A stretch of 64,000 nt of DNA from Faecousia sp. (GTDB lineage Bacteria > Bacillota > Clostridia > Oscillospirales > Oscillospiraceae): positions 10,672-74,671 of the forward strand of contig JAZUQE010000147.1 of the NCBI GenBank assembly GCA_045605575.1. The letters run 5' to 3'. This document shows positions 6,481-57,835 of this stretch, piece by piece (the first letter of the stretch is position 1; every line of letters begins with the position of its first letter). The translations under genes were made by a program, and so were the position numbers. The notes under the pieces were generated by a model that did not search any database, had not been told where the DNA came from, and saw only the letters and a program-made list of their open reading frames with translations.

Positions 6481-6644
6481 AGTTCTCACTCTCGCCAGTT
6501 TTTTAATCTATTATACGCAGATTTGAAAATATAGTCAAGATAATGTTGTATTAACTGTATAGATGCGGCTGATCCATGCTTTTTCATGAATTAAGAATTT
6601 ATTTGTTGACAGAAGACTGAAAATATGATAGTTTATCTGCATAA

Positions 6645-6872
6645 ATGCATAGATGGGGAGGTTCTGCTCTCATATTCCTTATAGAGAGCGCGCGGAGGGT
6701 GAAAGCGCGCAGGAATGGCAGCAGATGGTCGCCCCGGAGCAGACTGCCCGAAGCATAGTAGGGTGGTTCGGGTTAGCCCGTTATAGCTTTCAAGTGCCCG
6801 CTTTTGCGGGAATTCAGGTGGTACCGCGGAACTTGTAGTTTTCGCCCTGAGCAGTCTGCTCGGGGCGTTTTT
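6645..6872 (+). promoter_or_regulatory. T-box riboswitch leader (Val)
   Basis: AGAGA/GGTGAAA stem-I elements, T-box AGGTGGTACCGCGG at 6816-6829, terminator hairpin CGCCCTGAGCAG/CTGCTCGGGGCG plus T-run at 6843-6872; probable specifier GTC (Val) at 6728-6730; directly precedes valS. Confidence 0.9.
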
Positions 6873-9602: not shown

Positions 9603-9677
9603 GCTTTCTTGTTTGCGACAGCAAATTGCGTTCAGTTCTTTTTATACTGATTATGCAAAATGAAAGGAGGATATCAG

Positions 9678-9995
9678 ATGCAATTTACGAGTTTCCTACA
9701 TAATGGCCATCTGACAGTGGCACTGACAGGGGAAATTGATCATCACAGAGCCAAGGGGTATATTCAAGCAATTGCTGCAAAGATAGAAGCATATAACCCG
9801 GATGTTTGTACATTGGATTTTCAGGAAGTTACCTTTATGGATTCGTCTGGAATAGCTGTGGTGATCAATGCAATGCGTGCAATGGCAAGAATAGAAGGTA
9901 AGCTGTACTTGACCGGACTTGGCAGCCAGCCTATGAAGGTTTTCCGGGCGTCCGGCATTGATAAATTGGTGGAGATTAAGGAGGCGGTATTATGA
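9678..9995 (+). CDS. spoIIAA: Anti-sigma-F antagonist (STAS domain)
   Basis: GEIDHH, TFMDSSG; first gene of the spoIIA operon; RBS AAGGAGG before ATG 9678. Confidence 0.93.
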   Translation: MQFTSFLHNGHLTVALTGEIDHHRAKGYIQAIAAKIEAYNPDVCTLDFQEVTFMDSSGIAVVINAMRAMARIEGKLYLTGLGSQPMKVFRASGIDKLVEIKEAVL

Positions 9996-10423
9996 AATTT
10001 GAAAACTATATGATTTTGGAATTCCCAAGTAAATCTTCTAATGAGGCTTTCGCCAGGTCGTCGGTGGCCTGCTTCGCAGCACAGATGGATCCAACTATTG
10101 AGGAATTAGGGGACATTCGGACGGCAGTATCTGAGGCGGTAACCAATTGTATTGTCCATGCCTACCCGGATGCACTGGGGATCATCACTGTGCGATGCCG
10201 GATATTAAAGGATAATGTGCTGGATATTGTGATCAAAGACAGAGGAATTGGGATACCCGACCTGGAGCAGGCAAAAAAGCCCATGTTTACTACCGGAGGT
10301 GCGGACCGCAGCGGCATGGGCTTTACGATCATGGAGAGCTTTATGACCAGCTTTGAAGTATCCTCTCAACCCGGAAAAGGCACCAGCGTACATATGCGCC
10401 GGAAGCTGCAGCGCAGAAAATGA
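9992..10423 (+). CDS. spoIIAB: Anti-sigma-F factor / kinase
   Basis: NEAFAR, AVSEAVTNCIVHAY, RSGMGFTIMESFM. Confidence 0.96.
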   Translation: MKFENYMILEFPSKSSNEAFARSSVACFAAQMDPTIEELGDIRTAVSEAVTNCIVHAYPDALGIITVRCRILKDNVLDIVIKDRGIGIPDLEQAKKPMFTTGGADRSGMGFTIMESFMTSFEVSSQPGKGTSVHMRRKLQRRK

Positions 10424-11124
10424 ACAGGATAGAAGAACTGATCCGAAAAAGCCAGTCAGGCGACAGGGAAGCGGGAGAACTGCTGATCACAGAGAATGCG
10501 GGGTTGATATGGTCCATTGCCAAACGATTCCTTGGAAGAGGAACAGAGGCAGATGATCTGTATCAGTTGGGATGTCTCGGCTTTTTGAAGGCCGTGGAAG
10601 GTTTTGACTTGGATTATGGCACGCAGTTTTCTACTTATGCTGTGCCGAAGATTGCCGGGGAGATACGGCGATTTCTGCGTGATGACGGAGCGATAAAAGT
10701 TTCCAGAAGTCTGAAAGAGCAAGCTGTACAGATTAAGAATACAAGAAATCTTCTCGTACATGCTTTAGGCAGAGAACCTACGATCCGGGAGATTTCGGAG
10801 CATTCCGGTTTGACTGCGGAAGAGATCGCGTTGGCAGAAACTGCAACCGCCGCCACGGAATCGATACATAGAGAAAGCGGGGAAGACGGCTATACGCTGG
10901 AAAATATACTGTCGGATACGGAATCGGAAGAAACGATGGTTGAGAGGATCTCTTTGCGCCAGGCTATTGCGCACTTGCCGGAACGGGAAGCCATGGTGAT
11001 CAAGCTGAGATATTTTCACGGTCTTACACAGGAACGTGTATCCAGGATCCTTGAGGTGAGCCAAGTGCAGGTTTCACGTATTGAAAAGAAAGCTTTGAAT
11101 CTTTTAAGAAATCTAATGGAGTAA
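10420..11124 (+). CDS. sigF: Forespore sigma factor F
   Basis: DDLYQLGC.G..KA, FSTYAVP.I.GEIRRFLRDDG.IKVSRSLK, SQVQVSR; follows spoIIAB. Confidence 0.93.
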   Translation: MNRIEELIRKSQSGDREAGELLITENAGLIWSIAKRFLGRGTEADDLYQLGCLGFLKAVEGFDLDYGTQFSTYAVPKIAGEIRRFLRDDGAIKVSRSLKEQAVQIKNTRNLLVHALGREPTIREISEHSGLTAEEIALAETATAATESIHRESGEDGYTLENILSDTESEETMVERISLRQAIAHLPEREAMVIKLRYFHGLTQERVSRILEVSQVQVSRIEKKALNLLRNLME

Positions 11125-32046: not shown

Positions 32047-32931
32047 ATGTTAGATTTGGTTCGGGCATACGAAAATTACCTGACAAAGGTAAAGCAGGCA
32101 TCTGCCAACACCGTTTCCTCCTATATGAGAGATATTCGTCAGTTTGCTTCTTGGCTTTCTGACGAACGGGGGATCGATGTTGTTGATGCAACCCAACTGA
32201 ATATAGCCGATTATTTTTCTCACCTAGAATCTGAGGGCCGTTCCGGCGCGACACTTTCACGTAGCTTAGCCAGCCTAAAGAATTTCTACACTTATGTAGT
32301 ATCTACCGGTTTTTTGGAGCAGAGTCCTGTCCTGGATGTACATGTTGAGCGGGGAGAAAAGAAAGCTCCCCAAATCCTTACCAGCCGTGAGATCGAGCGC
32401 TTGCTTGCGCAACCTGCCTGTGTAGATGCAAAAGGTTATCGAGATAAAGCAATGCTCGAAGTAATGTATGCAACCGGTATTCGTGTTACGGAGCTGATCA
32501 ATCTCGATCTTTCTGACGTGAATCTGGAGCTTGGTATTATTAAATGTACCGGTTCTAAAAAATCCCGTGCCATTCCGTTGTATCCAGCAGCGCTTCGAGC
32601 TTTGAAAGCTTATTTGGATCAAGTGCGCTCCTCTATGATTCTGGATTCGGATGAGCGTGCACTGTTCGTGAATATCAGCGGTGTTCGTATGAGCAGGCAA
32701 GGGTTTTGGAAAATACTAAAGCATTATCAGCAAACGGCCCATATTGAGAAGGAAATCACGCCCCATACGCTTCGACATAGCTTTGCAGTGCATCTGCTGG
32801 AAAACGGTGCGGATATTGGCTCTGTTCAGGAACTGATGGGTCACAGTGATATTTCTTCTACACAGGTCTATACGCAAATGATCAACCAAAAATTGAAATC
32901 TGTGTATGCCAAATGTCATCCAAGAGCATAA
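32047..32931 (+). CDS. xerD: Tyrosine recombinase XerD/RipX
   Basis: NTVSSY.RD, RDKAMLE..YATG.RV.EL, SRQGFWK..K, HTLRHSFA.HLLENGAD, GH.DISSTQ.Y. Confidence 0.9.
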   Translation: MLDLVRAYENYLTKVKQASANTVSSYMRDIRQFASWLSDERGIDVVDATQLNIADYFSHLESEGRSGATLSRSLASLKNFYTYVVSTGFLEQSPVLDVHVERGEKKAPQILTSREIERLLAQPACVDAKGYRDKAMLEVMYATGIRVTELINLDLSDVNLELGIIKCTGSKKSRAIPLYPAALRALKAYLDQVRSSMILDSDERALFVNISGVRMSRQGFWKILKHYQQTAHIEKEITPHTLRHSFAVHLLENGADIGSVQELMGHSDISSTQVYTQMINQKLKSVYAKCHPRA

Positions 32932-35866: not shown

Positions 35867-36871
35867 ATGCAGCGTTATCAAGATTGTCCGTTGATTTTGC
35901 GGGATTTTCTTACTTATCATGAGACGATTAAAGGTCAGTCTCCACGTACGATTCAAGAATATTACTTAGATCTAAGAATGTTTTTACGTTTTATGAAATT
36001 GATGCGAAACGATATGCCGATCCATACGCGTTTGGAAGACATTCCGATCAAAGATATTGATATTTCCTTTCTGCGTGATATCAATACATCTGACATCTTC
36101 GACTTCCTTTCTTATCTTGCGAATGATCGCACGCCGAATCCTGACGCTGCTTACCCTGATCATGGAATTGAAGCGTCTTCCCGTGCCAGAAAGCTTTCGG
36201 CAATTAAATCCTTTTATAAATATCTGACAGTCCGCACAAAACAGCTTCCCGAGAATCCAGTTGCGGATTTAGAGTATCCTAAACTTCGCAAGAGTCTTCC
36301 TAAGTATTTAACTCTTGAGCAATCTGCTGCATTGCTTCGAGCTGTATCCGGTCCCAATGAAAAACGCGATTATGCGATTTTAATGATCTTTCTGAATTGC
36401 GGCATCCGTCGTAGCGAATTGGTGGGATTGAACATGTCTGATGTTTATGAGGACCGCCTTAGGATCGTTGGTAAAGGCAACAAGGAGCGATTTGTGTATT
36501 TTGGCACTTCCTGCCGCAAGGCGATTGATGATTATCTTCCCGAACGCAACAAAAAAGTGCTATCAGACAACCGCGCGCTGTTCGGGTCCCGAGATAATAA
36601 TCGGATCAGCGTGACAGCTGTTCATCGGCTGGTGAAAAAAGCCCTTTTGCAGGCCGGTTTGGACGCAACGCAGTTTTCTGCCCATAAATTGCGGCATACT
36701 GCAGCGACTATGATGCTTTCCGGCGGCGTGGATGTAAAGACGGTTCAAGAAGTTTTGGGACACGAAAACCTGAATACTACCCAGATCTACACCCATATTG
36801 AGAACACAGAGCTAAAAATTGCGGCAGAGGCCAATCCTCTTTCTAAGCTGGATTTTTCTGCGGATGAATAA
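35867..36871 (+). CDS. Xer-family tyrosine recombinase (XerC/XerS-like)
   Basis: RDYAI...L.CGIRRSEL, GKG.KER, HKLRHT.AT, LGH..L.TTQIY: complete R-K-H-R-H-Y catalytic set. Confidence 0.92.
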   Translation: MQRYQDCPLILRDFLTYHETIKGQSPRTIQEYYLDLRMFLRFMKLMRNDMPIHTRLEDIPIKDIDISFLRDINTSDIFDFLSYLANDRTPNPDAAYPDHGIEASSRARKLSAIKSFYKYLTVRTKQLPENPVADLEYPKLRKSLPKYLTLEQSAALLRAVSGPNEKRDYAILMIFLNCGIRRSELVGLNMSDVYEDRLRIVGKGNKERFVYFGTSCRKAIDDYLPERNKKVLSDNRALFGSRDNNRISVTAVHRLVKKALLQAGLDATQFSAHKLRHTAATMMLSGGVDVKTVQEVLGHENLNTTQIYTHIENTELKIAAEANPLSKLDFSADE

Positions 36872-39035: not shown

Positions 39036-39155
39036 GCGAAGCACCTCCATGTTCATTTCTATGCACAGTGCGTAAAAAGAGAACCGAAGAGGCATATCTG
39101 GCATAGAATGACTCGGAACGACAGTTCCTATGTTACAAGACAGGAGGAATCTACC

Positions 39156-39602
39156 TTGAAAAACAAAACCGGAAGGGATATTGGCGGCGAGGGAAGATTA
39201 CCGTCGATGGCCCCACTGGCAAATCCTTATGTACCGTTTCAAATGGAAAACCCGCCGAAATATGAGGCAAGAAAGGGTTTGATCCGCGGCACGCTGTTCC
39301 CAGGTCTGGATCTGCCTTTTATGGGAATGGTCAATCAGAAAGAGAAGAAAGTAACACCTAGGACGGAAATGCAGGCAATGGCATTTGCGATCCAGGAACT
39401 GGCACTGTATCTGGACACTCACCGAGAAGATACGGAAGCACTTGCGCTGTACCAGACCTATCAAAGAATGTATCATGAGTGCATGAAGAATTATACAGCT
39501 GAGTGCGGTCCGCTTACCCATAGAACACCCACCGACGGGCAATGTTACAAGTGGCTTGATGATCCTTGGCCCTGGGAATACTGTGCCAATAAGGAGGCCT
39601 GA
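39156..39602 (+). CDS. cotJB: CotJA-CotJB fusion spore coat protein
   Basis: PLANPYVPFQ..Y....GL.RGTLFPGLDLPF (CotJA) followed in frame by ELALYLDTH...GPL...W...PWPWE (CotJB); TTG start after CAGGAGG. Confidence 0.85.
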   Translation: MKNKTGRDIGGEGRLPSMAPLANPYVPFQMENPPKYEARKGLIRGTLFPGLDLPFMGMVNQKEKKVTPRTEMQAMAFAIQELALYLDTHREDTEALALYQTYQRMYHECMKNYTAECGPLTHRTPTDGQCYKWLDDPWPWEYCANKEA

Positions 39603-39604
39603 GT

Positions 39605-39762
39605 ATGTTTATTTATGATAAGAAGCTGCAGTACCCTGTAAAGATCGACAAACCCAATCCCAGATTGGCTGCGATCATCATTTCCCAGTATGGCGGTCCG
39701 GATGGAGAGCTTGGTGCTTCCTTACGGTATCTCTCTCAACGCTATTCCATGCCATTCGATGA
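39605..39762 (+). pseudogene. cotJC: cotJC 5' half (codons 1-53) of an interrupted Mn-catalase-family gene
   Basis: Not in ORF track. RBS AAGGAGG, then MFIYDKKLQYPVKIDKPNPRLAAIIISQYGGPDGELGASLRYLSQRYSMPFDE; reads into the element and stops at 39781. Confidence 0.95.
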
Positions 39763-39780
39763 GCCGAAGCATACAGCATG
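39752..39780 (+). repeat. Left attachment junction
   Basis: Core CCATTCGATGA followed by GCCGAAGCA-TACAGCATG; TACAGCATG is the reverse complement of CATGCTGTA at 44182-44190. Confidence 0.88.
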
Positions 39781-39822
39781 AAACGCCGGTGACCTGAACA
39801 TCAGTCTCCGGCGTTTCATGCT
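39775..39822. terminator. Strong hairpin at the element's left end
   Basis: 15-bp perfect IR AGCATGAAACGCCGG/CCGGCGTTTCATGCT. Confidence 0.7.
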
Positions 39823-39852
39823 TATAATTCTATATTGTTATGTGAGTTTTGC

Positions 39853-40491
39853 TCAGCGGTGTTTGGACAGCAGCCAACTTACCAGTTCATCGGTATAGGC
39901 GTGATCCCAGGCGTTATGTCCAGCATTATCTAGCAATGTCATCTTGATCTCAGGATCATCCGGTCGGACTTCCCGCAGTTTTTGTATCATATTCATGGTC
40001 TCGGAAGGGTAAACCGTCTGGTCCTGTGTGCCATGAAAAGCCCAAACGGGCATATCCAGTACAGGTACCTTCCATACCATACCGCCACCACAAATAGGAG
40101 CGATTGCGGCAAAGGTCTGTGGGAACCTGCAGGCCGTCAACCAGGTGCCGTAACCGCCCATGCTCAAACCTGTCAGATAGATACGGGAACGATCTATATC
40201 GAAAAGGGTAATCAGTTTTTGGATGAAGCAGTGCAGATTTAGAATTTCCGCAGCCCAGAAGCTATCGGGGGGACATTGAGGCATGATAAACAAGCAGGGA
40301 TATTCGACTTCTGGCCCTAAAATATGAGATAAGCCATGGAGATCCACCTTTGGCAGGTCATCTCCCCCGTTGCCTACCTCGCCTGCGCCATGCAGCTGAA
40401 TGATCACAGGCATATTGTGTGTGCAGCAGGAGGGCTTGTACATAACAAATGGAAATTCCAAATTATTGGGGCTGTATTCTTCGCGGATCAT
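39853..40491 (-). CDS. Alpha/beta hydrolase (phospholipase/carboxylesterase or peptidase type), element cargo
   Basis: LHGAGE.G, PQCP...W, RIYLTGLSMGGYGTW, FHG..D..V, GHNAW. Confidence 0.88.
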   Translation of the reverse strand: MIREEYSPNNLEFPFVMYKPSCCTHNMPVIIQLHGAGEVGNGGDDLPKVDLHGLSHILGPEVEYPCLFIMPQCPPDSFWAAEILNLHCFIQKLITLFDIDRSRIYLTGLSMGGYGTWLTACRFPQTFAAIAPICGGGMVWKVPVLDMPVWAFHGTQDQTVYPSETMNMIQKLREVRPDDPEIKMTLLDNAGHNAWDHAYTDELVSWLLSKHR

Positions 40492-40561
40492 CGCATAAAC
40501 CTCTTTCTTTTTGCATTGCAAATCCGAAGACTGACTATATGAGATTTTTATGCTATTGGTT

Positions 40562-41434
40562 CTAAATCAGATAGCTGTTAAGAATGGAGATGCCGATTTG
40601 GTTTGCATAGATGTTATCGGTATATTCTGCCAGTAAAAATGCATGGCGGGTCCCTTCGATCACATGCAGATCGCAGGAAAGGTTCATCCTTTGCATCTTC
40701 TCATAAAAGCTTTCTGAATGATACAATCCAACGGTATTGTCACATGCACCATGGATCAGTACAACAGGACACAGATGATCATGGACATGACATATGGGAG
40801 ATAGATAGCGCATCCGTTCTTCAAAGTCCATATGCGCCAGAATAGGATGGTTTGTTTCCGAAGGAATGCACTTTCTCCAAACCGGGCAGTTTTCAAAATC
40901 CAGGATCGCATTCACAAGGAAAGCGCAACGAAATGCAAAGGCTTCTCTGCGATAAGTAGTTGCCAGTAAACCAGCCAGATGGCCGCCGGCAGACTCGCCC
41001 AGGATGGAAACATGATTGGCATCGATATGGTGAACAAGAGCGTGCTCAAGGATATAATCCATTGCTTCCGCGCAGTCATCATAGCAATCTATGATCTGAT
41101 AACCGGGCTTCTGTCCCTCCTCCCTGCTCAGTCGGTAGTCAATACAAACGCAGACGTAACCGTGATCTGCGTAGTACCTGGCAAGATAGCCTAAATAATC
41201 CCCTTGCCAGAGACCATTCTGATCCGGGAATATCTTATGTGTGCTCCAGCCGCCACCATGCACCAGTACAAGCGTGGGAAGCAAGCGGTCCGGCATGGAA
41301 TCCGGATAAAAATAGCTTAAATAGATGTTTTGTCCATCTGCAGATTTGTATGCAACAGTTTCATCACCGCAGTGCCGCTGGATTGCGGAGGAAAAGTCAA
41401 GCTCATGAGATTGCAGTGCGTACACTTTTTTCAT
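40562..41434 (-). CDS. Alpha/beta hydrolase (HSL-like / carbohydrate esterase), element cargo
   Basis: VHGGGW, DYRL, GESAGGHLA, IHG..D..V, H.F. Confidence 0.88.
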   Translation of the reverse strand: MKKVYALQSHELDFSSAIQRHCGDETVAYKSADGQNIYLSYFYPDSMPDRLLPTLVLVHGGGWSTHKIFPDQNGLWQGDYLGYLARYYADHGYVCVCIDYRLSREEGQKPGYQIIDCYDDCAEAMDYILEHALVHHIDANHVSILGESAGGHLAGLLATTYRREAFAFRCAFLVNAILDFENCPVWRKCIPSETNHPILAHMDFEERMRYLSPICHVHDHLCPVVLIHGACDNTVGLYHSESFYEKMQRMNLSCDLHVIEGTRHAFLLAEYTDNIYANQIGISILNSYLI

Positions 41435-41452
41435 AAATTTTTACCTCTGTAC

Positions 41453-42208
41453 TTACAGCCAAGCATCTACAGCGCAGCGGATCTTGCGCAGCAATGCTTC
41501 GTTCGGCGCGGAAAGTATATTGATTGACTGAGGAATATAATTTATGGGCTCCAGCTGAATACCGAGCAGAGTTTTTAGCCAAACACACGCCAAAACGTAT
41601 CTTCCATATTCAAAGCTCATATGGAAGCCGTCGCGGCAAAGAGAAAGGCCGCCGGACGGCACATGGAATTCCGGTAGCTGCCGAAGCTTTTGAATTACGG
41701 TACCGCTGGGGATCAAGCCGAGCTGATATTTCTCGGCCATTTGGGTATAGCAGCTATGCAGCTTCTCGTACATAAGCTGTTGGTTCCGGTTATACCGCAT
41801 AAAATTCCCGTGGGTGCTGGTATGCTCGTATGCCCAGGTTTCCTGTAAAAAAAGTTTGGCATTGGGAGCATGGTTATGCAGATAGTTGACCAGGAGGCCC
41901 AGGAAAGGTTCGTAGGAGCAGATCCAACCGCTGTCGTGGCTCGCCTGCTGGGTAACGATCACATCCCAGGAGCGCATTGCAAGTGCCTCCTGAATGGAGA
42001 TCATCCGTGCGCTCTTGATTCCGTTGTGGTGGTAGTTGTACGTTCCTTCCGTCTCAACATTTTGCCAGTGCTTTTCCAGAGGACATCCGCCTATATAGAG
42101 ATTGGTGATCTGAATATCCTCACCTGCCGCCACAGATAGTTGGTGCAAATATGCACAGGCATCTTCGGAAAAGCTGTTACCAATTGCTAAAACCTTCATT
42201 ACACTCAT
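41453..42208 (-). CDS. SGNH-like hydrolase (DUF4886-like), element cargo
   Basis: LAIGNSFSED, NLYIGGC.L..H, WD....QQAS, ETWAY, RDGFH. Confidence 0.8.
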   Translation of the reverse strand: MSVMKVLAIGNSFSEDACAYLHQLSVAAGEDIQITNLYIGGCPLEKHWQNVETEGTYNYHHNGIKSARMISIQEALAMRSWDVIVTQQASHDSGWICSYEPFLGLLVNYLHNHAPNAKLFLQETWAYEHTSTHGNFMRYNRNQQLMYEKLHSCYTQMAEKYQLGLIPSGTVIQKLRQLPEFHVPSGGLSLCRDGFHMSFEYGRYVLACVWLKTLLGIQLEPINYIPQSINILSAPNEALLRKIRCAVDAWL

Positions 42209-42535
42209 TTTGATCTTCCTTTTTATTCGAAATGATATTGTTTCAACATATGGAAGGTTATCGTTCTTGCTTTATGATTGTTCTATCGTGCTGAGTGGGT
42301 GCTACACCCATAACATGCATAAATACCCTGAAAAAAATGGTTATCCGGAATCCGTACGGAAAATGATTGTCTATCTCTGAATCGTCACACCAGCGATATC
42401 TCTTCAGAAGATATCATTAACGCGAATTATAACATAAAAAAAGTGCTATGTAAATATATTAGCAAGAATTCGGTAGACGATTGGTTCAAGCTAGAAATAT
42501 ACTTGTGTATGATCAATAGAAAGGATGGATGCGAA

Positions 42536-42712
42536 ATGCCTTTTCCTCCCGAACTTGTAAACGGGCACGGATTTACTGTGGAACACTGTGATCAAATCTT
42601 TACAAATGACGCGCAAAAACTACGGGTAATCCAGCAGATCGCTGCCAAGGTTTCCGAGATTTTCCAAAACACCTGCATAAATGCCGAAATTATTCACGAT
42701 GGAGAGGATTGA
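42536..42712 (+). CDS. Small 58-aa protein, candidate recombination directionality factor
   Basis: GAAAGGA upstream of ATG 42536; MPFPPELVNGHGFTVEHCDQIF...; overlaps the recombinase start. Function inferred from position only. Confidence 0.5.
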   Translation: MPFPPELVNGHGFTVEHCDQIFTNDAQKLRVIQQIAAKVSEIFQNTCINAEIIHDGED

Positions 42713-44177
42713 TGCCATATACGCCAGACAATCCGCGGACCGTGCAGACAGTATTTCCATCGAAAGTCAAATTGAATTCTGCACATATGAAACCCACGGC
42801 GGCCCGCATCAGATATACGCAGACCGTGGATATAGTGGTAAGAACACAGAGCGGCCGGAATTTCAGCGCATGTTGGAGGATATCAAAGCGGGCGCCATCC
42901 GGCGTGTGATTTGCTACAAATTAGATCGATGCAGCCGCTCGATCTTGGATTTTACTTCCTTAATGGAATTTTTTCAACAACATGCTGTGGAGTTCATTTC
43001 ATGTACAGAAAAATTCGATACATCCAGCCCGATGGGGCGGGCCATGCTGAATATATGCATTGTATTTGCCCAATTGGAGCGTGAGACTATTCAGCAACGT
43101 GTATATGATGCCTACCATGCCAGATGTAAACACGGTTTTTATATGGGCGGGAGAATCCCATTCGGTTATCAACTACAGCCGCATAGGATCGAAAACAAGA
43201 AAACAGCATGCTATGTGCCCGATCCTGTAGAAGCACCGCTTCTGCAAAAGCTTTACGGGCTTTATGCGGTTAGCAGCTGTTCCCTCTCTGATGTTTGCCG
43301 TTACATGCACGGGCAAAAACTCGAAAATCCGCGGCGAGCAGATGGACTTTGGATCCGAAGTCATGTGGGAAGGCTTCTTCGAAATCCGATCTATGTGAAA
43401 GCAGATCTTGCAGTTTACTATTTCTTTCAAGAGAAAGGAATACAGATCCACAATCCACCGGCAGATTTTATTGGAATCAACGGTTGCTATCTCTATGAAG
43501 ATAAGGCGGATCATACTAAACTTTTGGTTTTGGCACCGCACGAAGGAATTGTGGATTCCAGAACCTGGCTTTCCTGCCGAAAAAAGGGGCGGGCAGAAAC
43601 GGAATATCAGCAAACAGGAGTCAAATACAGTTGGCTATCCGGCCGGATTAAATGCGGGATTTGTGGCTATGCAATGATCGTGCGTAAAGTGCGGAATCAG
43701 GCTTGCTTTCGCTGCAGTATGAACGTAGAGTCCAAAGAACATTGTCATGGTGTGGGATCTTTCCCGGTTGAACAGGTGGAAAACAGCATACTTCCTGGGT
43801 TGAAGCGGAAATTGAATATGTTGGCTCTCTTCCCTATACAAGCATGTAAAAAATGGGATAAGGATCAGGCACGGATCCATATCCAAATAGCCTCTTTGGA
43901 AGAAGAATCAGCGGCGCTGGTGCGAAAGCTTCCGGACGCCAATCCTACGGTATATGCATATATTCAAAACCGGTTGGAGACCATTCGTGATGAATTAAGA
44001 TCGTATCTTCAACAGCTGGAAAAGGTCTGCAAACCAGATGATGCAGATCGTAAGCCACAGGACTACGCATGTCTGTGGGATGCGATGCCATTGAAGAAAA
44101 AACTGAAAATTGCACATTTGTTGATCCGGCGGATAACAGTGCATACGGACAAGATTTGCGTCGAATGGACCTTATAG
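42699..44177 (+). CDS. Large serine recombinase (SpoIVCA/CisA-like)
   Basis: YARQS catalytic Ser, D.GYSG....RP, KLDR.SR, AQLERE.I..R, GG..PFGY, L.NP.Y, zinc ribbon C..CG...C...C, coiled coil; alternative start at 42681. Confidence 0.95.
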   Translation: MERIDAIYARQSADRADSISIESQIEFCTYETHGGPHQIYADRGYSGKNTERPEFQRMLEDIKAGAIRRVICYKLDRCSRSILDFTSLMEFFQQHAVEFISCTEKFDTSSPMGRAMLNICIVFAQLERETIQQRVYDAYHARCKHGFYMGGRIPFGYQLQPHRIENKKTACYVPDPVEAPLLQKLYGLYAVSSCSLSDVCRYMHGQKLENPRRADGLWIRSHVGRLLRNPIYVKADLAVYYFFQEKGIQIHNPPADFIGINGCYLYEDKADHTKLLVLAPHEGIVDSRTWLSCRKKGRAETEYQQTGVKYSWLSGRIKCGICGYAMIVRKVRNQACFRCSMNVESKEHCHGVGSFPVEQVENSILPGLKRKLNMLALFPIQACKKWDKDQARIHIQIASLEEESAALVRKLPDANPTVYAYIQNRLETIRDELRSYLQQLEKVCKPDDADRKPQDYACLWDAMPLKKKLKIAHLLIRRITVHTDKICVEWTL

Positions 44178-44181
44178 GCAG

Positions 44182-44201
44182 CATGCTGTACCATTCGATG
44201 A
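44182..44201 (+). repeat. Right attachment junction
   Basis: CATGCTGTA followed by core CCATTCGATGA. Confidence 0.88.
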
Positions 44202-44640
44202 ACTGAAAGGCCTGCTGACGGATATTGGGACGGAAGAGCTGGGGCATCTGGAGATGATCGGGGCATTGGTGCATCAGCTGACGCGCAATCTTTCTGACGC
44301 ACAGATCCAGGACTCGGCATTTGCACCCTACTTTGTAGATCATACGGCCGGTGTGTATCCTACAGCGGCATCCGGATTTCCTTGGACAGCTGCAAGCATG
44401 CAGGTGAAGGGAGATCCCATGGCTGACTTGGCAGAAGATTTAGGTGCAGAGCAAAAAGCGCGGGTCACGTATGATAATATTCTTCGGCTTTCGGATGACC
44501 CTGATGTTAATGATGTGATCAAGTTCCTAAGAGAACGGGAAGTTGTGCACTTCCAGCGCTTCGGTGAAGCGGTGCAGCTGCTGCGTGAAAAACTGAACCA
44601 GAAAAACGTGTATTATATGAATCCGGCTTTCGACATTTAA
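44191..44640 (+). pseudogene. cotJC: cotJC 3' half
   Basis: PFDELKGLLTDIGTEELGHLEMIG...KGDPMADLAEDLGAEQKAR.TY...FLREREVVHFQRF; continues exactly where the 5' half stops. Confidence 0.95.
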
Positions 44641-44645
44641 AAAGA

Positions 44646-44673
44646 TGGCGCGCTGCTTTTCTGCAGCGCGCCA
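44646..44673. terminator. Hairpin between convergent cotJC and asnA
   Basis: TGGCGCGCTGC/GCAGCGCGCCA. Confidence 0.7.
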
Positions 44674-52241: not shown

Positions 52242-52712
52242 TTATACTTCCTCTACAGTAGACTCCTTATGCTCCTGCGCCCGTGCGAAGGAGCCAAGAA
52301 TTCCGTTAACAAAGGCACCTGTATCATCGCCATCGTACTTTTTGGCAAGGCGGACAGCCTCGGAAATTGCCACGCCAACAGGTACATCCTCGACGTAGAG
52401 AGCCTCAAAGATGGCAAGTTGCATGATCGCGCGGGTCAACCGGGAAATTCTGCTGACATCCCAACCAATTGAATAGGTTTGGATCTGAGCGTTCAAATCT
52501 TCCTCACGGTTTGCCACACCGGACACAACGCTATCCAAATACGCCTGCTGAGCGCGGCTGGGACGCTCGGAGTATACATCGTTTTCTGCAGAAAGCTTTG
52601 CGTAATACGCACGCTCCAAGCGTGCTGCAATCACACGTTCGGGCGATTCATCCGTAAAATTACGGCTATAGATCAAATGTACGGCCAGTTCTCTGGCATT
52701 TGCTCTTGTCAT
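52242..52712 (-). CDS. nusB: Transcription antitermination factor NusB
   Basis: R..ARE.A, VP..VAI.EAV.LAKKY, FVNGILG. Confidence 0.95.
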   Translation of the reverse strand: MTRANARELAVHLIYSRNFTDESPERVIAARLERAYYAKLSAENDVYSERPSRAQQAYLDSVVSGVANREEDLNAQIQTYSIGWDVSRISRLTRAIMQLAIFEALYVEDVPVGVAISEAVRLAKKYDGDDTGAFVNGILGSFARAQEHKESTVEEV

Positions 52713-52722
52713 ATCGGCGTCC

Positions 52723-53091
52723 TTACTTTACGGCAATGCCGCAGACATTGACATTCACGCAGTTGACCTTGCTCCCGGTCATGGATTCTACTGCAGAAGT
52801 AACGCCTTCCTGTACTGCCTTGGCCACAGAAACAACACTCTGGCCATATGCAATGATGATATTGCAGTCAACGCAAACGGAATTGTCCTCTTGGATGGTG
52901 ATCTTCATACCCTTGCCCCACTGCTTTCTGCCGATCAGATCCGCAATATCGGAGCCCGGCTTGGTGCTCAGAGATGCAACACCTTCCACTTCAGCGATGG
53001 TGTGGGAAACGATCGTAGACACTACGTCTTCAGAAATCATGACGGCCCCATTTTCCTGGATTTGGGAAATATACTGCTTATTATCTGCCAT
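52723..53091 (-). CDS. Asp23/Gls24 family protein (YqhY-like)
   Basis: G.V.ISEDV...I, EVEGV, VQ..V..AVESMTG, VNVNV. Confidence 0.9.
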   Translation of the reverse strand: MADNKQYISQIQENGAVMISEDVVSTIVSHTIAEVEGVASLSTKPGSDIADLIGRKQWGKGMKITIQEDNSVCVDCNIIIAYGQSVVSVAKAVQEGVTSAVESMTGSKVNCVNVNVCGIAVK

Positions 53092-53242
53092 AGTAATTCC
53101 TCCTAATCGCGCGCAATGCGCACACTTTTCTATATTGTACCACATATCCAGAAAAAAACAACTGTTTGTTTTTAGCCTTTTATGAAAAATCGCCATAGAT
53201 GCGTTAAAAAATGCATCTATGGCGAAGGATTCACGCGGCGAT

Positions 53243-53782
53243 CTACTGTACTTCGACAATACGAATGGAGTCTAATTCAAAATCCGACTGGGAAAGCACG
53301 ATGTCTGCGATCACAGCTACATCTTGCTGCTGCATCCCTCCCTCGGGTGTCGCAACGGCGACGGAGATCCCATCTTCCCCAATATAGGCCACACAGTCTG
53401 CATATCCCTTGGCAATGACCAGACTTTCAATCTGGGCCTCGCAAAGGGCCATTTGGACAATTTCTTCCAATTGCGCATTTGTATCGGATTCATCCGCTTC
53501 CTCATCATAGGCCATTGCTTCCTGCAGGAGCGTAACAGCACTGTCTCTGGCTTCCTGTCTGGACAGGCGGACTGCTGCAAAATAGTCTGTGATCGTATTG
53601 GAAGGATCACTCAGCGCATCACCCATGACCAGCATATCGGACGACATCAGTTTATCCGCATCAAGAGTTTGGGTCAAATCAGCAGTTGCCTGCTCCTCAC
53701 TATAGAGCCAATTTACGTAAATTCCTGCGCAAACCGTGACAAGAACTGCTGCTGCAATTAGGTTTTTCTTCCAGATTTTCAT
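53243..53782 (-). CDS. spoIIIAH: Stage III sporulation protein AH
   Basis: YFA..RL.R...R, E..IE....AKGY.D; last gene of the operon. Confidence 0.9.
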   Translation of the reverse strand: MKIWKKNLIAAAVLVTVCAGIYVNWLYSEEQATADLTQTLDADKLMSSDMLVMGDALSDPSNTITDYFAAVRLSRQEARDSAVTLLQEAMAYDEEADESDTNAQLEEIVQMALCEAQIESLVIAKGYADCVAYIGEDGISVAVATPEGGMQQQDVAVIADIVLSQSDFELDSIRIVEVQ

Positions 53783-53796
53783 GTAAAGTCCTCCTA

Positions 53797-54303
53797 TCAC
53801 TTCATTTTCAAGACGGAAATTTTGTCAGCACCCAGGCCAGTTGCTTTGCTGACAGCTTCTACGATAGCGAGACGAACAGATGGATCATCAGCGCCTTGAC
53901 ATACGATGATGGCGCCTAAATAAGAAGGGGGATTTACCTGACGAACCAGCCCGGACTCGTTACGCTGGGAATCGGTGATCGTGATGGTGCTTGTTTTGTT
54001 TTTTTGCTGCCCTTCCTGGTCTGTACGGTCTGTGTCCACCTGATAGAGCGTTTCTTCGCCGGAAGAAACTGTGAGCATTACATGCACCTCGCCTGCACCG
54101 GACACACGTGTCAGCATAGCGGACAAGCGCTGCTCAATGGTTATATCTTGTGGAACGCTGGGAGCAAGAGATTCGTTTTGCTTTGATTGAGATGTTTTTG
54201 AGGGCAGGATCATCAGAATGATACCAATCAGTAAAACGATCAAGGCATAACGATACTTGCGGTTTAGGTTGCTTAGTTTGCTCCTTATGGTTGACAAGTC
54301 CAC
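53797..54303 (-). CDS. spoIIIAG: Stage III sporulation protein AG
   Basis: L..V.GAG.V.VMLT, P...G..IVC.GA, I.VLKM. Confidence 0.9.
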   Translation of the reverse strand: MDLSTIRSKLSNLNRKYRYALIVLLIGIILMILPSKTSQSKQNESLAPSVPQDITIEQRLSAMLTRVSGAGEVHVMLTVSSGEETLYQVDTDRTDQEGQQKNKTSTITITDSQRNESGLVRQVNPPSYLGAIIVCQGADDPSVRLAIVEAVSKATGLGADKISVLKMK

Positions 54304-54758
54304 TCTTGTGCCTCCTTCGGTATTCCCAGCTGTACAGAAATCCATTCGGACAAGTGAGATCTTGTATAGGGGGATACTGCGCCATGAATCAGAGCTGCAG
54401 TGGGGAGTAAATCTTCTACCGTAACTTCCACATTAAGATCCACCCCCATTGCAGCCGCTTTGTCCAAGATATATGTTTCTGATCTCGACTTTATGACAGC
54501 GGTCAACTCTTCGGCAGCCGCTTCTTTTCCGGTACTTGCAGCTGCTTCTGCTTCTGCTGCAAAAGAATAACCGCTGGCTTCCAGTACGGAAAAATCCATG
54601 ATGCGCAGCGGAGCGATCAAGGTACAAGCCATAAAAATGCCGCTCAGTATCTTCACAAGACCGGAAGCAGCGGATTGTTTGCCGACCAATTCCCTGACGA
54701 TACCACAGAGAATGGCAGCGGCGGTCACGGACAATAGATAGTTCTTGAAGCCATCCAT
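54285..54758 (-). CDS. spoIIIAF: Stage III sporulation protein AF
   Basis: Two N-terminal TMs; position between AE and AG. Confidence 0.75.
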   Translation of the reverse strand: MDGFKNYLLSVTAAAILCGIVRELVGKQSAASGLVKILSGIFMACTLIAPLRIMDFSVLEASGYSFAAEAEAAASTGKEAAAEELTAVIKSRSETYILDKAAAMGVDLNVEVTVEDLLPTAALIHGAVSPYTRSHLSEWISVQLGIPKEAQEWTCQP

Positions 54759-55798
54759 CAGCTAATTCCTTTCATAAAGCAAACGGTACTGACCATGAGA
54801 AGCAGGCATACGGTTCCGGTCATAGCCAGCAGTAACCCCAAACCGCTGGAGAAATCTTTCAGTATACCAACAAATTGCTTGGATCCGAACACTTCACAGA
54901 CAGCACTCGTAATCTTCAAGAGTAAATAATGGGAACCGATTTGAAGAAATGGGAGTATGCATATTGAGATCAATGCCAGAATGCCATATACTCCGGCGGC
55001 GTTTTTGGCGATAGATGCACTGACCAGAATCGCTTCAGAGGCATCTGACAGGATGCCGCCTACCACAGGAACAGCACCGGAAATCGTTAGCTTTGTGGCT
55101 TTGATAGCAGCGGCATCGGCACTTCCGCTGACAACACCGGTCACGGCGATATAACCTGTGTACACATACAGGATCGTCTTCAACAACCAGGTAGCTAACC
55201 ACTTCAAAAAATCCCTTATTTTGCCGAGGAGTGCTTCTCCAACAGCACTGTATGCTGTGGATATACATAAATATGCGTATACAATTGGGATAATAGCGGC
55301 AGATATAAGACTGCTCAGCAATGCGTCGAAAGCAGCTGTGGCAGTATACAAAGCAACGGATGTTCCGCTTCCGCCTTGCGCTGCCACGGCTGCACTCATG
55401 ACTGGTAATAGAAGCCGGCCGTATTCACTAAGCTGCTGCACCGTTTCGGCAGCGAGGCCAATAAACGAGTGAGAGGTTTGCAATAGCAAGACGCCCACGG
55501 CAATCGTGCCAACAAGCTGCGCCACATGCTGAGGACAGCCGCGAACACTTTGCACCATGGCCAGCAGCAAAGCAAGTGCAATGAATGATGCACTAAGACG
55601 AAGTGCTTCGACCAGAGCTGGCTGAATTTTAGGGAGAACTTCTTGAAGAATGGATTGTAATCCTTCCGAAAAACTAACATTTGGTTCCGGCGTTATGGAC
55701 GCAGCTTCTCCGGTGACGGTGGGCGCAGTAAAAGAAACGGCTTCGGCGTGGGGGGCAAGTAAGAAAACAGAAAGAATAATTAAAATGATCTTACTCAT
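54758..55798 (-). CDS. spoIIIAE: Stage III sporulation protein AE
   Basis: VPVVGGILSDA...KNA.G..G; multiple TMs. Confidence 0.9.
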   Translation of the reverse strand: MSKIILIILSVFLLAPHAEAVSFTAPTVTGEAASITPEPNVSFSEGLQSILQEVLPKIQPALVEALRLSASFIALALLLAMVQSVRGCPQHVAQLVGTIAVGVLLLQTSHSFIGLAAETVQQLSEYGRLLLPVMSAAVAAQGGSGTSVALYTATAAFDALLSSLISAAIIPIVYAYLCISTAYSAVGEALLGKIRDFLKWLATWLLKTILYVYTGYIAVTGVVSGSADAAAIKATKLTISGAVPVVGGILSDASEAILVSASIAKNAAGVYGILALISICILPFLQIGSHYLLLKITSAVCEVFGSKQFVGILKDFSSGLGLLLAMTGTVCLLLMVSTVCFMKGIS

Positions 55799-56190
55799 AT
55801 GTTCTCCATAATATCATTTACCAGAGAAAGTAACTGTGTAAAGAGCGGGAGTGCAAGCCATAGAATGACTGCGGAAGCTGCAATTTGCAGTGTCTTACCC
55901 AATGCGCTGTTCCCAAGATCACTGCAAAGCGTGGATGTGATCTCTGTTAACAGGCCGATGCCAGCTGCTTTCATCAAGATCTCCACAAAAGCGCTGTCGA
56001 ATTGGCCGAGATCTTGCAGCTGCTCAAGGAAAGATGTCACAGGTTCCAGGTAGGTTAATGCGCCGATCAGCAGCAGGCAGCAGGCAGCTACTGTCAGTAC
56101 TGAGGCTATGTCCTTGTCCTTTTTTGCAAGGATCAGGTACAGGACCATGGAGATCAGCGCCAATGCAGAAGCTTTCCAAATAAATTCCAT
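55795..56190 (-). CDS. spoIIIAD: Stage III sporulation protein AD
   Basis: L.K..GI..LTE....C.D.G...L. Confidence 0.9.
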   Translation of the reverse strand: MEFIWKASALALISMVLYLILAKKDKDIASVLTVAACCLLLIGALTYLEPVTSFLEQLQDLGQFDSAFVEILMKAAGIGLLTEITSTLCSDLGNSALGKTLQIAASAVILWLALPLFTQLLSLVNDIMENI

Positions 56191-56384
56191 CAGAAATGAA
56201 AGAGGGATTTCACAAGATCAAACAGGTCTGCGATTTTTTGAACAAGCATCATCAAGACAACGATCAAGCCTGCCAGTGTTGTCATAGTTGCCTGTTCTTC
56301 CCTGCCCGAACGTGAAAGCACCTGGTTGAGAATTGAAACAATAATACCGACTGCGGCAATACGAAATATTAAATCAATTTCCAT
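56190..56384 (-). CDS. spoIIIAC: Stage III sporulation protein AC
   Basis: IDLIF.IAAVGI.V..LNQVL..SGREEQA..TTLAG. Confidence 0.95.
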   Translation of the reverse strand: MEIDLIFRIAAVGIIVSILNQVLSRSGREEQATMTTLAGLIVVLMMLVQKIADLFDLVKSLFHF

Positions 56385-56388
56385 ATGA

Positions 56389-56901
56389 TCAGATTAAAAT
56401 AATGACAAGGGCCGCACCGGCGCACAACCCAAAAATTTGATAGCTTCTAATTCGTATATCACGGTTTTCTTCCTGCTGCTGCAAAGCTTGTTTGCAACGC
56501 TGGAGCACTGCTTCCGCACCACGCAGCTGCCCTGTCAAATCGAAGCGTCCCAAAGACTTACCGAGATCAAGAAGATATGCCCGGGACAGTTCAGGCAAAT
56601 CCTTCACCTGGTCAATGGCATGAACCATGCAGGTGAATGGATCCGGTGATAACTGCTGCTCCATACTGTGACACATATGCATGAAAACCTGGCTCAATGG
56701 CACAACGGCATCAGCCTGCAACAATCGGAATAGCTGTGGTAGGGGCGTTTGATGATACTCCAAATGGCAAATCATAAACTCAAAATGTACGCAAAGCTGT
56801 CGAAGAATATTGGCCTCTTTGCAATAGGCACGGCCTGCTGCGAAACCGATATAACCGAATGCAGACAGCAAACATGCCGCTCCGATCCATTTTACATGCA
56901 T
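56389..56901 (-). CDS. spoIIIAB: Stage III sporulation protein AB
   Basis: K.IGA..., I..LEY..TPLP, LG..LG..D..GQ; operon position. Confidence 0.88.
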   Translation of the reverse strand: MHVKWIGAACLLSAFGYIGFAAGRAYCKEANILRQLCVHFEFMICHLEYHQTPLPQLFRLLQADAVVPLSQVFMHMCHSMEQQLSPDPFTCMVHAIDQVKDLPELSRAYLLDLGKSLGRFDLTGQLRGAEAVLQRCKQALQQQEENRDIRIRSYQIFGLCAGAALVIILI

Positions 56902-56902
56902 G

Positions 56903-57745
56903 CTATAAGCCTTCCGCTTTCCAGGACTTGTCCGGCTGCATAGTGACCAGCAGATCGAACAGCCCTTTTTCAATGATCGGGCGATACACCGGTCTGGAAA
57001 GTAAGTCGTGGCGGCTTTCTGCATGGGCCGTGGCCAGCAGATGTACACCGCTCCAGCCGGCTTGGACAAGGGCTTGACAATCTTCTTCCTGCGTTATCTC
57101 ATCAACCGCAATACTGCTCGGTCCCATTGTACGCAGCACATTGATAATGCCAATCTTCTTGGGGCAAAAGCTCAGGATATCCGTCCTTTTTCCTTGATCG
57201 AAACAAATGTGCCCATTGGATACTGGAAAGAGCTCTCCCCTTTCGTCCACAACACTGATACTTCCTGGGGAAGCATCAGATCTGCGTCTGATCATATCCC
57301 GCAGCAAAGTTGTCTTTCCGCTTCCCGGTTTGCCGATAATCAGAACGGAATGGGCGGATGTTGGGATGCCGGTACTGATTCCAGGAAAATCTCTGGCTAC
57401 GCGAATACACAGGCTATGGACTGTTCGTATGGCCGAAACGCCATCACGGTTCAGGATAGCTTCACCACAAATACCGATTCTGTGTCCGCCGGGTGCAGTC
57501 AGATAGCCTTGAGAACTGGTAGCAGCGGCCCAAGGAGAATACTGGGAAGCGGCATTGATAATAAACTGTATATCTTCTTGCTGGACCGTACGAGAAAGGC
57601 TTGTGCTGTTTCCGGACCGTATCAATTCGGGCGGCAATCCGGATCGGATCCGTAGCTCCTGTAATGTATTTGCTCCAAGCTCATGGACATCCTTGCGCAT
57701 CCAGAAAGGCAACAGATTTAAGAATTCTTGCCAGGCGCATATCAT
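56903..57745 (-). CDS. spoIIIAA: Stage III sporulation protein AA (ATPase)
   Basis: ELRIR, GYLT.PGGHRIG..G, GSGKTTLLRD, DERGE, VDEI, TAH. Confidence 0.93.
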   Translation of the reverse strand: MICAWQEFLNLLPFWMRKDVHELGANTLQELRIRSGLPPELIRSGNSTSLSRTVQQEDIQFIINAASQYSPWAAATSSQGYLTAPGGHRIGICGEAILNRDGVSAIRTVHSLCIRVARDFPGISTGIPTSAHSVLIIGKPGSGKTTLLRDMIRRRSDASPGSISVVDERGELFPVSNGHICFDQGKRTDILSFCPKKIGIINVLRTMGPSSIAVDEITQEEDCQALVQAGWSGVHLLATAHAESRHDLLSRPVYRPIIEKGLFDLLVTMQPDKSWKAEGL

Positions 57746-57764
57746 TTGCATCACTCCTTGGGAC

Positions 57765-57792
57765 ATCCTATGCACATTACATGGGAATATGA
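57765..57792 (-). promoter_or_regulatory. Sigma-E promoter of the spoIIIA operon
   Basis: Minus strand TCATATT-13 bp-CATAGGAT; spoIIIA is a known sigma-E operon. Confidence 0.75.
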
Positions 57793-57835
57793 AAAAAAGC
57801 TGACAGCAACAGCTGTCAGCTTGTATGATATAGGA

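What the first reader, a model, noticed from the sequence alone, without database searches (positions are those of the whole stretch)
39605..44640. cotJC split by a compact serine-recombinase element: candidate sporulation-programmed gene reassembly
Seen: cotJC codons 1-53 (39605-39762) and the rest of the gene (to 44640) are separated by 4,439 bp bounded by CCATTCGATGA. Joining at the repeat gives ...SQRYSMPFDE-LKGLLTDIGTEELGH..., an uninterrupted 198-aa Mn-catalase-type CotJC. Both halves keep the expected metal-ligand motifs (GE, EELGH, AE, EVVH) and have no frameshifts or internal stops. The insert encodes an apparently intact large serine recombinase. Known: skin/sigK (SpoIVCA), SPbeta/spsM and the B. 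cereus gerE element are excised in the mother cell to rebuild sporulation genes, and cotJ is a mother-cell sigma-E operon in B. subtilis. Inference: this is an analogous, very small, phage-free developmental switch in a clostridial lineage. I cannot confirm whether it is already described.
Basis: partly seen in the sequence, partly recalled or inferred. Interest (0 to 1): 0.93.

Follow-up and report, generated by a model that had tools for sequence, protein, structure and literature searches.

The report
Recombinase element splitting spore gene cotJC
A spore-coat catalase gene (cotJC) of a Faecousia-like bacterium is cut in two by a 4.4-kb element that carries its own recombinase and a predicted helper protein, and the element likely cuts itself out during spore formation to rebuild the gene, which makes it a new example of a known kind of switch.

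Summary
cotJC is split at codon 53 by 4,439 bp; removing it gives a stop-free 198-aa CotJC, and no second copy lies in the 86%-complete genome. The element carries an intact large serine recombinase (LSR), three esterase-like cargo genes and a 58-aa ORF predicted to bind the LSR like a directionality factor (0.74; best control 0.02). The crossover is a GA at the centre of a dyad att site.

This is common, not unique: at least 69 of 334 genus genomes have a split cotJC, at four mapped sites. Split alleles are as conserved as intact ones. In sister genomes sharing an element at this codon, cotJC shows 16 synonymous and 0 non-synonymous changes, so reassembly is likely real.

Sporulation timing is untested: no mother-cell promoter was found for this element's recombinase genes, sigK was not found, and no reads span a junction. 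cotJC is already reported as a target of skin-like elements, and this scan found such splits before on other DNA. The newer lead lies in relatives: a series from conjugative element to remnants whose LSR lost its C-terminal domains. Verdict: new member of a known kind.

The parts
39080..39109 (+). cotJ operon promoter-like site (GAAC, 17 nt, CATAGAAT); mother-cell, sigma-K-like by recalled consensus
   Evidence: Same motif upstream of cotJA in 97 of 98 distinct loci; window score 19.8
39156..39602 (+). cotJA-cotJB fused ORF (likely TTG start after GGAGG; longest ORF starts 39108)
   Evidence: Pfam CotJA and CotJB in one ORF; same fusion in L002
39605..39762 (+). cotJC 5' part, codons 1-52 plus the GA of codon 53; reads on into the element and stops at 39781
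   Evidence: Pfam Mn_catalase positions 1-51
39740..39782 (+). attL: host arm, crossover GA at 39761-39762, element arm with TACAGCATG at 39772-39780
   Evidence: Dyad symmetry peaks at this GA; GA in both attL and attR in 10 of 10 codon-53 elements
39775..39822 (.). Strong hairpin just inside the left end; likely terminator for cotJ read-through and for the cargo operon
   Evidence: 19-nt arms, 95% complementary; fold z-score -9.2
39853..40491 (-). Cargo: alpha/beta-hydrolase (esterase-like)
   Evidence: Pfam Peptidase_S9; NCBIfam PHB-depolymerase-like esterase below cut-off
40562..41434 (-). Cargo: BD-FAE-type esterase
   Evidence: Pfam BD-FAE E 5e-26
41453..42208 (-). Cargo: DUF4886 protein
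   Evidence: Pfam DUF4886 E 1e-67
42426..42454 (-). Sigma-70-type promoter-like site for the cargo operon (11 of 12 matches, extended -10)
   Evidence: Best site of 12 found; 9.9 expected in shuffles, so only this top site is suggestive
42536..42712 (+). 58-aa ORF overlapping the LSR start; candidate recombination directionality factor (RDF)
   Evidence: Positional equivalent of a small-ORF family upstream of this LSR clade; predicted complex with LSR C-terminus 0.74 against best control 0.02; a family HMM built without it does not find it
42699..44177 (+). Large serine recombinase (492 aa from the ATG at 42699; longest ORF from 42681)
   Evidence: Pfam Resolvase, Recombinase, Zn_ribbon_recom; in a 10-row clade (97/94) of codon-53 elements
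44180..44222 (+). attR: element arm with CATGCTGTA at 44182-44190, crossover GA at 44200-44201, host arm
44202..44640 (+). cotJC 3' part, from the last base of codon 53 to the stop; holds E65, H68, E136, E166, H169
   Evidence: Pfam Mn_catalase positions 55-198
44646..44673 (.). Terminator-like hairpin between cotJC and asnA

Best explanation
The element is a 4.4-kb remnant of a cotJC-targeting integrative element whose large serine recombinase, likely switched to excision by the 58-aa protein predicted to bind it, would recombine the two ends at their central GA and rebuild a full cotJC, most likely during sporulation in the mother cell. Shown: the split, the att anatomy, the intact LSR, the lack of phage or conjugation genes, and conservation of split alleles across the genus. 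Inferred: in growing cells the element stays in place, its hairpin stops the cotJ transcript, and the esterase cargo is expressed from its own promoter. In the mother cell, excision lets the cotJ promoter make full CotJC for the coat, while the spore chromosome keeps the element. Not shown: any excision event, or what times it.
For: Precise, stop-free reassembly, and no other cotJC or Mn-catalase hit in the genome. Dyad att site centred on GA, 13 of 20 positions symmetric, with GA kept in 10 of 10 codon-53 elements and two-sided changes in the arms. 72 junctions in 69 genomes join with no stop in either half and metal ligands kept. 64 split alleles carry 1.02 changes at invariant columns against 0.88 for 26 intact alleles (p 0.50); the window allele has one. 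Sister genomes with co-diverged elements show purifying selection on split cotJC: G279/G374 at this same codon 16 synonymous and 0 non-synonymous changes while island genes differ at pS 0.04-0.19; G192/G394 24 and 1; G190/G236 32 and 3; G170/G423 50 and 2. Small ORF with LSR residues 296-491: score 0.74, best of 3 controls 0.02; runs agree in at least 60% of contacts, partner pLDDT at least 59; the mark was reached by 116 of 157 solved and 2 of 215 mismatched pairs. The predicted interface (a strand added to the C-terminal sheet, a helix on the Zn-domain and coiled-coil base) is the one reported for verified RDFs (PMC12286644 passages). The host has spo0A and spoIVA over cut-off, sigE, sigF/spoIIAB and spoIIIA genes. 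Precedents: skin, SPbeta and gin.
Against: No mother-cell promoter was found for the small ORF or LSR in the window: best score 2.6 against 19.8 for cotJ, and no CATA-N3-T in the 12-75 nt upstream. Only a 9-of-12 sigma-70-like site lies there, which is within chance. Across the clade the motif is in 8 of 14 cotJC-resident against 2 of 11 other elements, p 0.10 after correcting misclassified rows. sigK was not found in this genome (86% complete). The window's small ORF is divergent: family HMMs built without it miss it, it lacks the conserved Pro and Lys-Tyr, and it has no homolog among 5.8 billion proteins. No close relative of this element exists, so selection on its own LSR or halves since insertion could not be measured (nearest hosts about 69% DNA identity; synonymous sites saturated). 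In C. difficile, loss of cotCB or cotD does not reduce spore yield (PMC9542656 passage), so the pressure to rebuild may be mild.
Confidence: 0.6

Rival explanations
1. The element is excisable but not developmentally timed. cotJC is a conserved landing site that costs nothing in growing cells, excision is rare or stress-driven, and the halves stay intact because empty-site alleles circulate in the species and recombine in.
For: No mother-cell promoter in this element. The same site is used by a conjugative element that moved recently (G214/G363: LSR pS 0.02, host cotJC pS 0.72; VirB4-like and other ICE genes). At least five cotJC sites are targeted, several by different LSRs. The cargo could itself be the reason for retention.
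Against: Co-divergence of island and host with 0 non-synonymous changes in the 3' parts of G279/G374 needs either routine reassembly or steady allele exchange. Several genomes carry two elements in the one gene, yet the pieces stay intact (G279, G150, G061). Some relatives have a CATAG-type -10 site before the small ORF.
Confidence: 0.29
2. The insertion is a dead end in this lineage: it no longer excises, and cotJC is a young pseudogene whose halves have not yet decayed.
For: The small ORF is degenerate relative to its family; no clear ribosome-binding site precedes the LSR start (sequence); one relative (G310) has a 2-nt loss at this crossover.
Against: The LSR is full-length with catalytic and Zn residues; both att arms keep inner and outer symmetry; the halves have one change at 109 invariant columns. 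The long LSR branch (0.54) and GC close to the flanks (0.46 against 0.47 and 0.50) do not suggest a very recent arrival, though neither dates it.
Confidence: 0.09
3. The arrangement is an assembly chimera joined through the 11-nt repeat.
For: The genome is a fragmented assembly (213 contigs); no contig of run X1 bridges either junction.
Against: Nine other genomes and one metagenome contig (L302) have a related LSR with the same att arm at the same codon; an 11-nt repeat is too short to misjoin contigs (inference).
Confidence: 0.02

Closest known systems
skin-Cd in sigK of Clostridioides difficile (LSR CD1231, RDF CD1234; PMC5025042, passages read)
   Same: LSR at the element edge, co-oriented and next to the 3' gene part; a small separate protein predicted to act as RDF; target is a mother-cell gene.
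   Different: Target is a coat catalase, not a sigma factor; 4.4 kb against 14.6 kb; the candidate RDF overlaps the LSR start and has no detected sigma-E or sigma-K promoter; excision not shown. Homology to CD1234 was not tested.
gin element in gerE of Bacillus cereus ATCC 10987 (GirC, GirX; PMC5595907, passages read)
   Same: Non-phage element with a serine recombinase splitting a sporulation gene; short shared core at both ends.
   Different: gin is 28.6 kb with three recombinases and excision was shown; this has one LSR and esterase cargo.
Skin-like element in cotJC of Laceyella sacchari (bioRxiv 2022.02.25.481979, passage read; its Table S3 not seen) and cotJC as a frequent integration target (Abe et al. 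2013, seen only as cited in bioRxiv 2021.11.22.469490)
   Same: Same target gene and same kind of element.
   Different: Those are in-silico mentions in other lineages; whether they use codon 53 could not be checked.
SPbeta in spsM (SprA, SprB) and skin-Bs (SpoIVCA) of Bacillus subtilis (PMC4191935, PMC6957869, passages read)
   Same: The described route from a mobile element to a small remnant kept for gene reconstitution matches the series seen here.
   Different: Those derive from prophages; the mobile members of this clade look like conjugative elements, and the best phage LSRs are about 31% identical.

Membership tests
Large-serine-recombinase integrative element | LSR with catalytic, recombinase and Zn-ribbon/coiled-coil domains | tested here: met
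   Pfam PF00239, PF07508, PF13408; serine motif and four Cys invariant in 40 homologs
Large-serine-recombinase integrative element | attL and attR share a central dinucleotide, with a dyad attP | tested here: met
   GA centre, 13 of 20 symmetric; GA in 10 of 10 codon-53 elements
Large-serine-recombinase integrative element | Cognate recombination directionality factor | tested here: inconclusive
   Complex prediction supports binding, 0.74 against 0.02; no Pfam or NCBIfam hit, and family HMMs built without it miss it
Large-serine-recombinase integrative element | Demonstrated attL x attR recombination | not testable with these tools
   Only thin contigs, none bridging a junction; no attP-like junction in any fetched locus
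Sporulation gene-intervening elements (skin, vfbin, gin, SPbeta) | Inserted in a mother-cell-expressed sporulation gene | tested here: met
   cotJA/JB/JC by Pfam; conserved promoter motif in 97 of 98 loci; sigma assignment from recalled consensus
Sporulation gene-intervening elements (skin, vfbin, gin, SPbeta) | Precise removal restores a full gene, and no intact copy exists elsewhere | tested here: met
   198 aa, no stop; tblastn finds only the two halves; genome 86% complete
Sporulation gene-intervening elements (skin, vfbin, gin, SPbeta) | Recombinase or RDF under sigma-E, sigma-K or SpoIIID control | tested here: inconclusive
   No matching site in the window element; the matrix came from one promoter family, no sigma-E matrix or SpoIIID box was tested; relatives 8 of 14 against 2 of 11, p 0.10
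Sporulation gene-intervening elements (skin, vfbin, gin, SPbeta) | Excision happens during sporulation and only in the mother cell | not testable with these tools
   No RNA holder or raw reads listed
Sporulation gene-intervening elements (skin, vfbin, gin, SPbeta) | Host is a spore former | tested here: inconclusive
   spo0A, spoIVA, sigE, spoIIAB/sigF, spoIIIAE/AG present; sigK not found
Prophage | Phage structural, packaging or lysis genes | tested here: not met
   The five element ORFs are an LSR, a small ORF, DUF4886 and two hydrolases
ICE / mobilizable element | Relaxase, coupling protein or type IV secretion genes | tested here: not met
   None in the element; present in clade members G214 and G260; an oriT was not searched for

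The most novel reading that the evidence does not exclude
The codon-53 family records a conjugative element being domesticated into an excision-only switch. The window is the intermediate stage (full LSR, drifting RDF, no mobility genes). Five relatives in at least three lineages keep an LSR cut after the recombinase domain with no small ORF, one lacks only the coiled coil, and the cut LSR stays under purifying selection. These would be natural RDF-independent mini-recombinases that rebuild cotJC, in a genus where a fifth of species must rebuild this gene from two or three pieces to make it.
Probability: 0.22. Interest if true: 0.68.

Novelty: new member of a known kind. Interest (0 to 1): 0.4.

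Why it matters
By itself this is one more sporulation-gene-intervening element in a gene already known as a target. Its value is comparative. It gives a complete, very small LSR, att and candidate-RDF set that can be tested on a plasmid. It belongs to a family whose members span mobile to minimal forms at one codon. It also supplies evolutionary evidence (purifying selection on split alleles in sister genomes) that cotJC is really rebuilt in uncultured Clostridia. If the truncated relatives are active, they would show how a selfish integrase becomes a one-way developmental excisionase and would be unusually small serine recombinases. For annotation, split cotJC genes in this genus should not be called pseudogenes by default.

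Tried and rejected
Direct evidence of excision: the look-up of sequencing runs listed 3 runs, one holding 0.21 of the words, and no RNA holder. Laid contigs at depth 2-4 covered parts of the element and both halves, but none bridged a junction or showed the relevant joint; this says nothing either way. A 26-nt probe from the 5' half found 0 matches in metagenome contigs. No attP-like junction was found in any fetched locus, including 102 viral and metagenome loci.

Nearest host for a direct empty-site comparison: the best genus matches are about 69% identical, and synonymous sites are saturated, so dN/dS for the window's own halves is uninformative.

Promoter enrichment: a first count gave 8 of 11 against 2 of 14 (p 0.005). 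Three rows were misfiled, and the corrected table is 8 of 14 against 2 of 11 (p 0.10), so I do not use it as support.

Small ORF: no Pfam or NCBIfam family, a singleton in the protein database, and its model (two short strands plus a long helix, pLDDT 75) had no PDB match at E 0.001.

Rejected: the 11-nt repeat as the functional att core (only GA is shared by all ten); prophage origin; restoration of cotJC by element-borne sequence (the 5' part stops five codons into the element, and the 3' part has no in-frame start before codon 70).

Literature: searches found no paper showing excision of a cotJC element or describing the Faecousia hotspot. Abe 2013 is not held and the supplement of the 2022 preprint was not seen, so either may hold more on cotJC.
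Full report
OBSERVATION. The repeat CCATTCGATGA occurs at 39752-39762 and 44191-44201 and nowhere else in the 2.3-Mb genome. Joining there in a script yields a 198-aa protein without a stop. It aligns without gaps to intact genus orthologues (93% to L002). tblastn finds only the two halves in the genome, which is 86% complete. Upstream lies a fused cotJA-cotJB ORF. A promoter-like motif (consensus TGAAC, 16-18 nt, CATAGTAT) precedes cotJA in 97 of 98 distinct loci, including the window. By recalled consensus this is sigma-K-like.

ANATOMY. From left to right the insert holds a strong hairpin (39775-39822, z -9.2), three minus-strand cargo genes (two esterase-like hydrolases and DUF4886), a 58-aa ORF (42536-42712) and an LSR ending 13 bp before the right repeat. 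The LSR has all three domains, with the serine motif and four Zn cysteines invariant in 40 homologs. The two element arms form a dyad centred on the last two bases of the repeat: CATGCTGTA (44182-44190) mirrors TACAGCATG (39772-39780), and 13 of 20 positions are symmetric. All ten codon-53 elements with both ends in hand share this GA, while their longer cores differ. There are no phage or conjugation genes. GC is 0.46 against 0.47 and 0.50 in the flanks.

CANDIDATE RDF. A 40-70-aa ORF family sits just upstream of most full-length LSRs of this clade. The window's ORF occupies that position and aligns by pattern, but HMMs built without it do not detect it, and it has no homolog in the protein database. 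A complex prediction with LSR residues 296-491 scored 0.74 against a best control of 0.02. The runs agreed in at least 60% of contacts and the partner's pLDDT was at least 59. The mark was reached by 116 of 157 solved and 2 of 215 mismatched pairs, and those counts hold only roughly because my own alignments were used. The ORF is predicted to add a strand to the LSR's C-terminal sheet and lay a helix on the Zn-domain and coiled-coil base, as verified RDFs do (PMC12286644, passages). This supports binding; it does not show it.

CONTEXT IN THE GENUS. Record titles of the closest homologous loci name Faecousia or Oscillospiraceae. Of 401 genus genomes, 347 matched an intact CotJC query. I re-queried the 128 with weak best hits; by my reading 13 of these hold only a 38-41% paralogue, leaving 334. 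For 69 genomes (window included) I fetched pieces on both sides of a break, giving 72 junctions: 10 at codon 53, 39 at codons 60-66, 22 at 133-136 and 1 near 165-176. The other re-queried genomes had one half only, contig-edge breaks or, in two cases (G030, G087), unjoined pieces, and were not counted, so 69 of 334 (21%) is a floor. A further site near the 3' end, with the LSR in opposite orientation, was seen but not mapped. The joins are in frame by construction. The real tests are that no residues are missing, no half has a stop, and ligands are kept: E35 69 of 69, E65 and H68 72 of 72, E136 68 of 69, E166 and H169 68 of 68. One join (G279a) showed stops only because it ran into that genome's second element. 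G279, G150 and G061 are cut into three pieces. One genome (G310) has a 2-nt loss at the codon-53 crossover.

IS THE GENE REBUILT? Split alleles are no more decayed than intact ones: 1.02 against 0.88 changes at invariant columns, 64 against 26 alleles, p 0.50. The window allele has one such change. Four sister pairs are close enough to count changes. G279/G374 share a 15.9-kb island at this same codon. Its genes differ at pS 0.04-0.19, so it co-diverged with the host, and cotJC has 16 synonymous and 0 non-synonymous changes, all in the parts beyond codon 53 (p 1e-10 against neutrality). G192/G394 show 24 and 1, G190/G236 32 and 3, and G170/G423 50 and 2 (the last pair's left ends differ, so shared descent is less clean). 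This is the best evidence for functional reassembly. Its limits: it concerns relatives, not the window, whose nearest hosts are only about 69% identical. Exchange with empty-site alleles in the same species could also keep the halves clean.

A SERIES AT CODON 53. The window LSR falls in a 10-row clade (support 97/94) whose members all sit at codon 53 (31 rows chosen from the 80 loci plus the window, N-terminal 300 aa). G214, G260 and G363 carry a conjugative element (VirB4-like, RecD2, PcfK/J) that moved recently (LSR pS 0.02, host cotJC pS 0.72). The window and G337 are metabolic islands with a full LSR and a small ORF. G395 lacks the coiled coil and has its LSR at the left end. G244, G339, G279, G374 and G150 have LSRs ending just after the recombinase domain, with no small ORF detected. 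The truncated LSR is still constrained (40 synonymous and 9 non-synonymous changes in G279/G374). Outer att symmetry (positions 14-20, read) is 5-6 of 7 for the window, G337, G214 and G260 (G260's LSR was not fetched; its element ends match G214) and 0-4 of 7 for truncated ones. A coiled-coil-less integrase excises without an RDF, but truncations in the Zn domain impair DNA binding (PMC3783163, passages), so activity of the shortest forms is open.

TIMING. The host has spo0A and spoIVA over cut-off, sigE, and the spoIIA and spoIIIA operons. sigK was not found; it appears split in three of five relatives checked. The window element shows no mother-cell promoter before the small ORF or LSR (score 2.6 against 19.8; no CATA-N3-T). 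Some relatives do, but the enrichment is not significant after correction (8 of 14 against 2 of 11, p 0.10). No reads test excision. Sporulation timing is therefore inferred from precedent and from selection, not seen.

WHAT IS KNOWN. Excision-rebuilt sporulation genes are established for skin, SPbeta, vfbin, vrin and the phage-free gin (PMC4191935, PMC5595907, PMC6957869, PMC5025042; passages). cotJC is named as a frequent integration target (bioRxiv 2021.11.22.469490 citing Abe 2013; one passage). A skin-like element in Laceyella sacchari cotJC and skin elements from 2.6 kb are reported (bioRxiv 2022.02.25.481979; passages; supplement not seen). My searches found no experimental excision of a cotJC element and no account of this hotspot. 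Earlier notes of this scan describe cotJC splits in at least seven other genomes; they are unchecked AI notes and are not counted as support.

VERDICT. Real, well-formed and probably functional, but a new member of a known kind: timed reassembly 0.60, untimed excision 0.29, dead insertion 0.09, artefact 0.02. Interest 0.40, lifted by the testable LSR-RDF pair and the truncation series in relatives.

Noticed in passing
G244, G339, G279, G374, G150 (L057, L061, L059, L060, L069) and G395 (L058): LSRs at the codon-53 site cut to about 300 aa (no Zn ribbon or coiled coil) in at least three lineages, or lacking only the coiled coil; small ORF not detected in the five short forms; truncated gene under purifying selection in G279/G374.
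   Followed up: partly
G279, G150, G061 (L059/L074, L068-L070, L114/L096); also G419, G030, G087: cotJC cut into three pieces by two separate elements; joined pieces remain stop-free in the first three.
   Followed up: partly
L072 (G310) about 1020-1030: A 2-nt loss exactly at the codon-53 crossover with no element present: possible scar of imprecise excision, or an assembly error.
   Followed up: no
G002, G088, G374; L197, L198: sigK appears split near codon 110-115 in three of five relatives checked; a recombinase-like ORF lies next to the 3' part in L198. sigK was not found in the window's genome.
   Followed up: partly
L036-L039, L214, L221, L222, L226: Related LSRs inserted in opposite orientation near cotJC codon 178, apparently supplying a replacement 3' end in some (L039); several have a good cotJ-type promoter match before the small ORF.
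   Followed up: no
window 39156-39602: cotJA and cotJB are fused in one ORF, also in relatives such as L002.
   Followed up: partly
window 32047-32931 and 35867-36871: Two tyrosine recombinases (XerD-like at cut-off, XerC-like below it) within 5 kb; probably chromosomal and unrelated to the element.
   Followed up: no
window 9660-11124 and about 52700-57800: spoIIAB-sigF and spoIIIA operon genes, consistent with a spore former; T-box leader at 6641-6852 before valS.
   Followed up: partly
L194, L195, L196 (own genome C84, C42, C98): Three other serine-recombinase loci in the genome, 23-34% identical to this LSR; the C42 one lies near an smpB-like gene. None was seen in a sporulation gene in the stretches read, but they were not annotated by family search.
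   Followed up: partly
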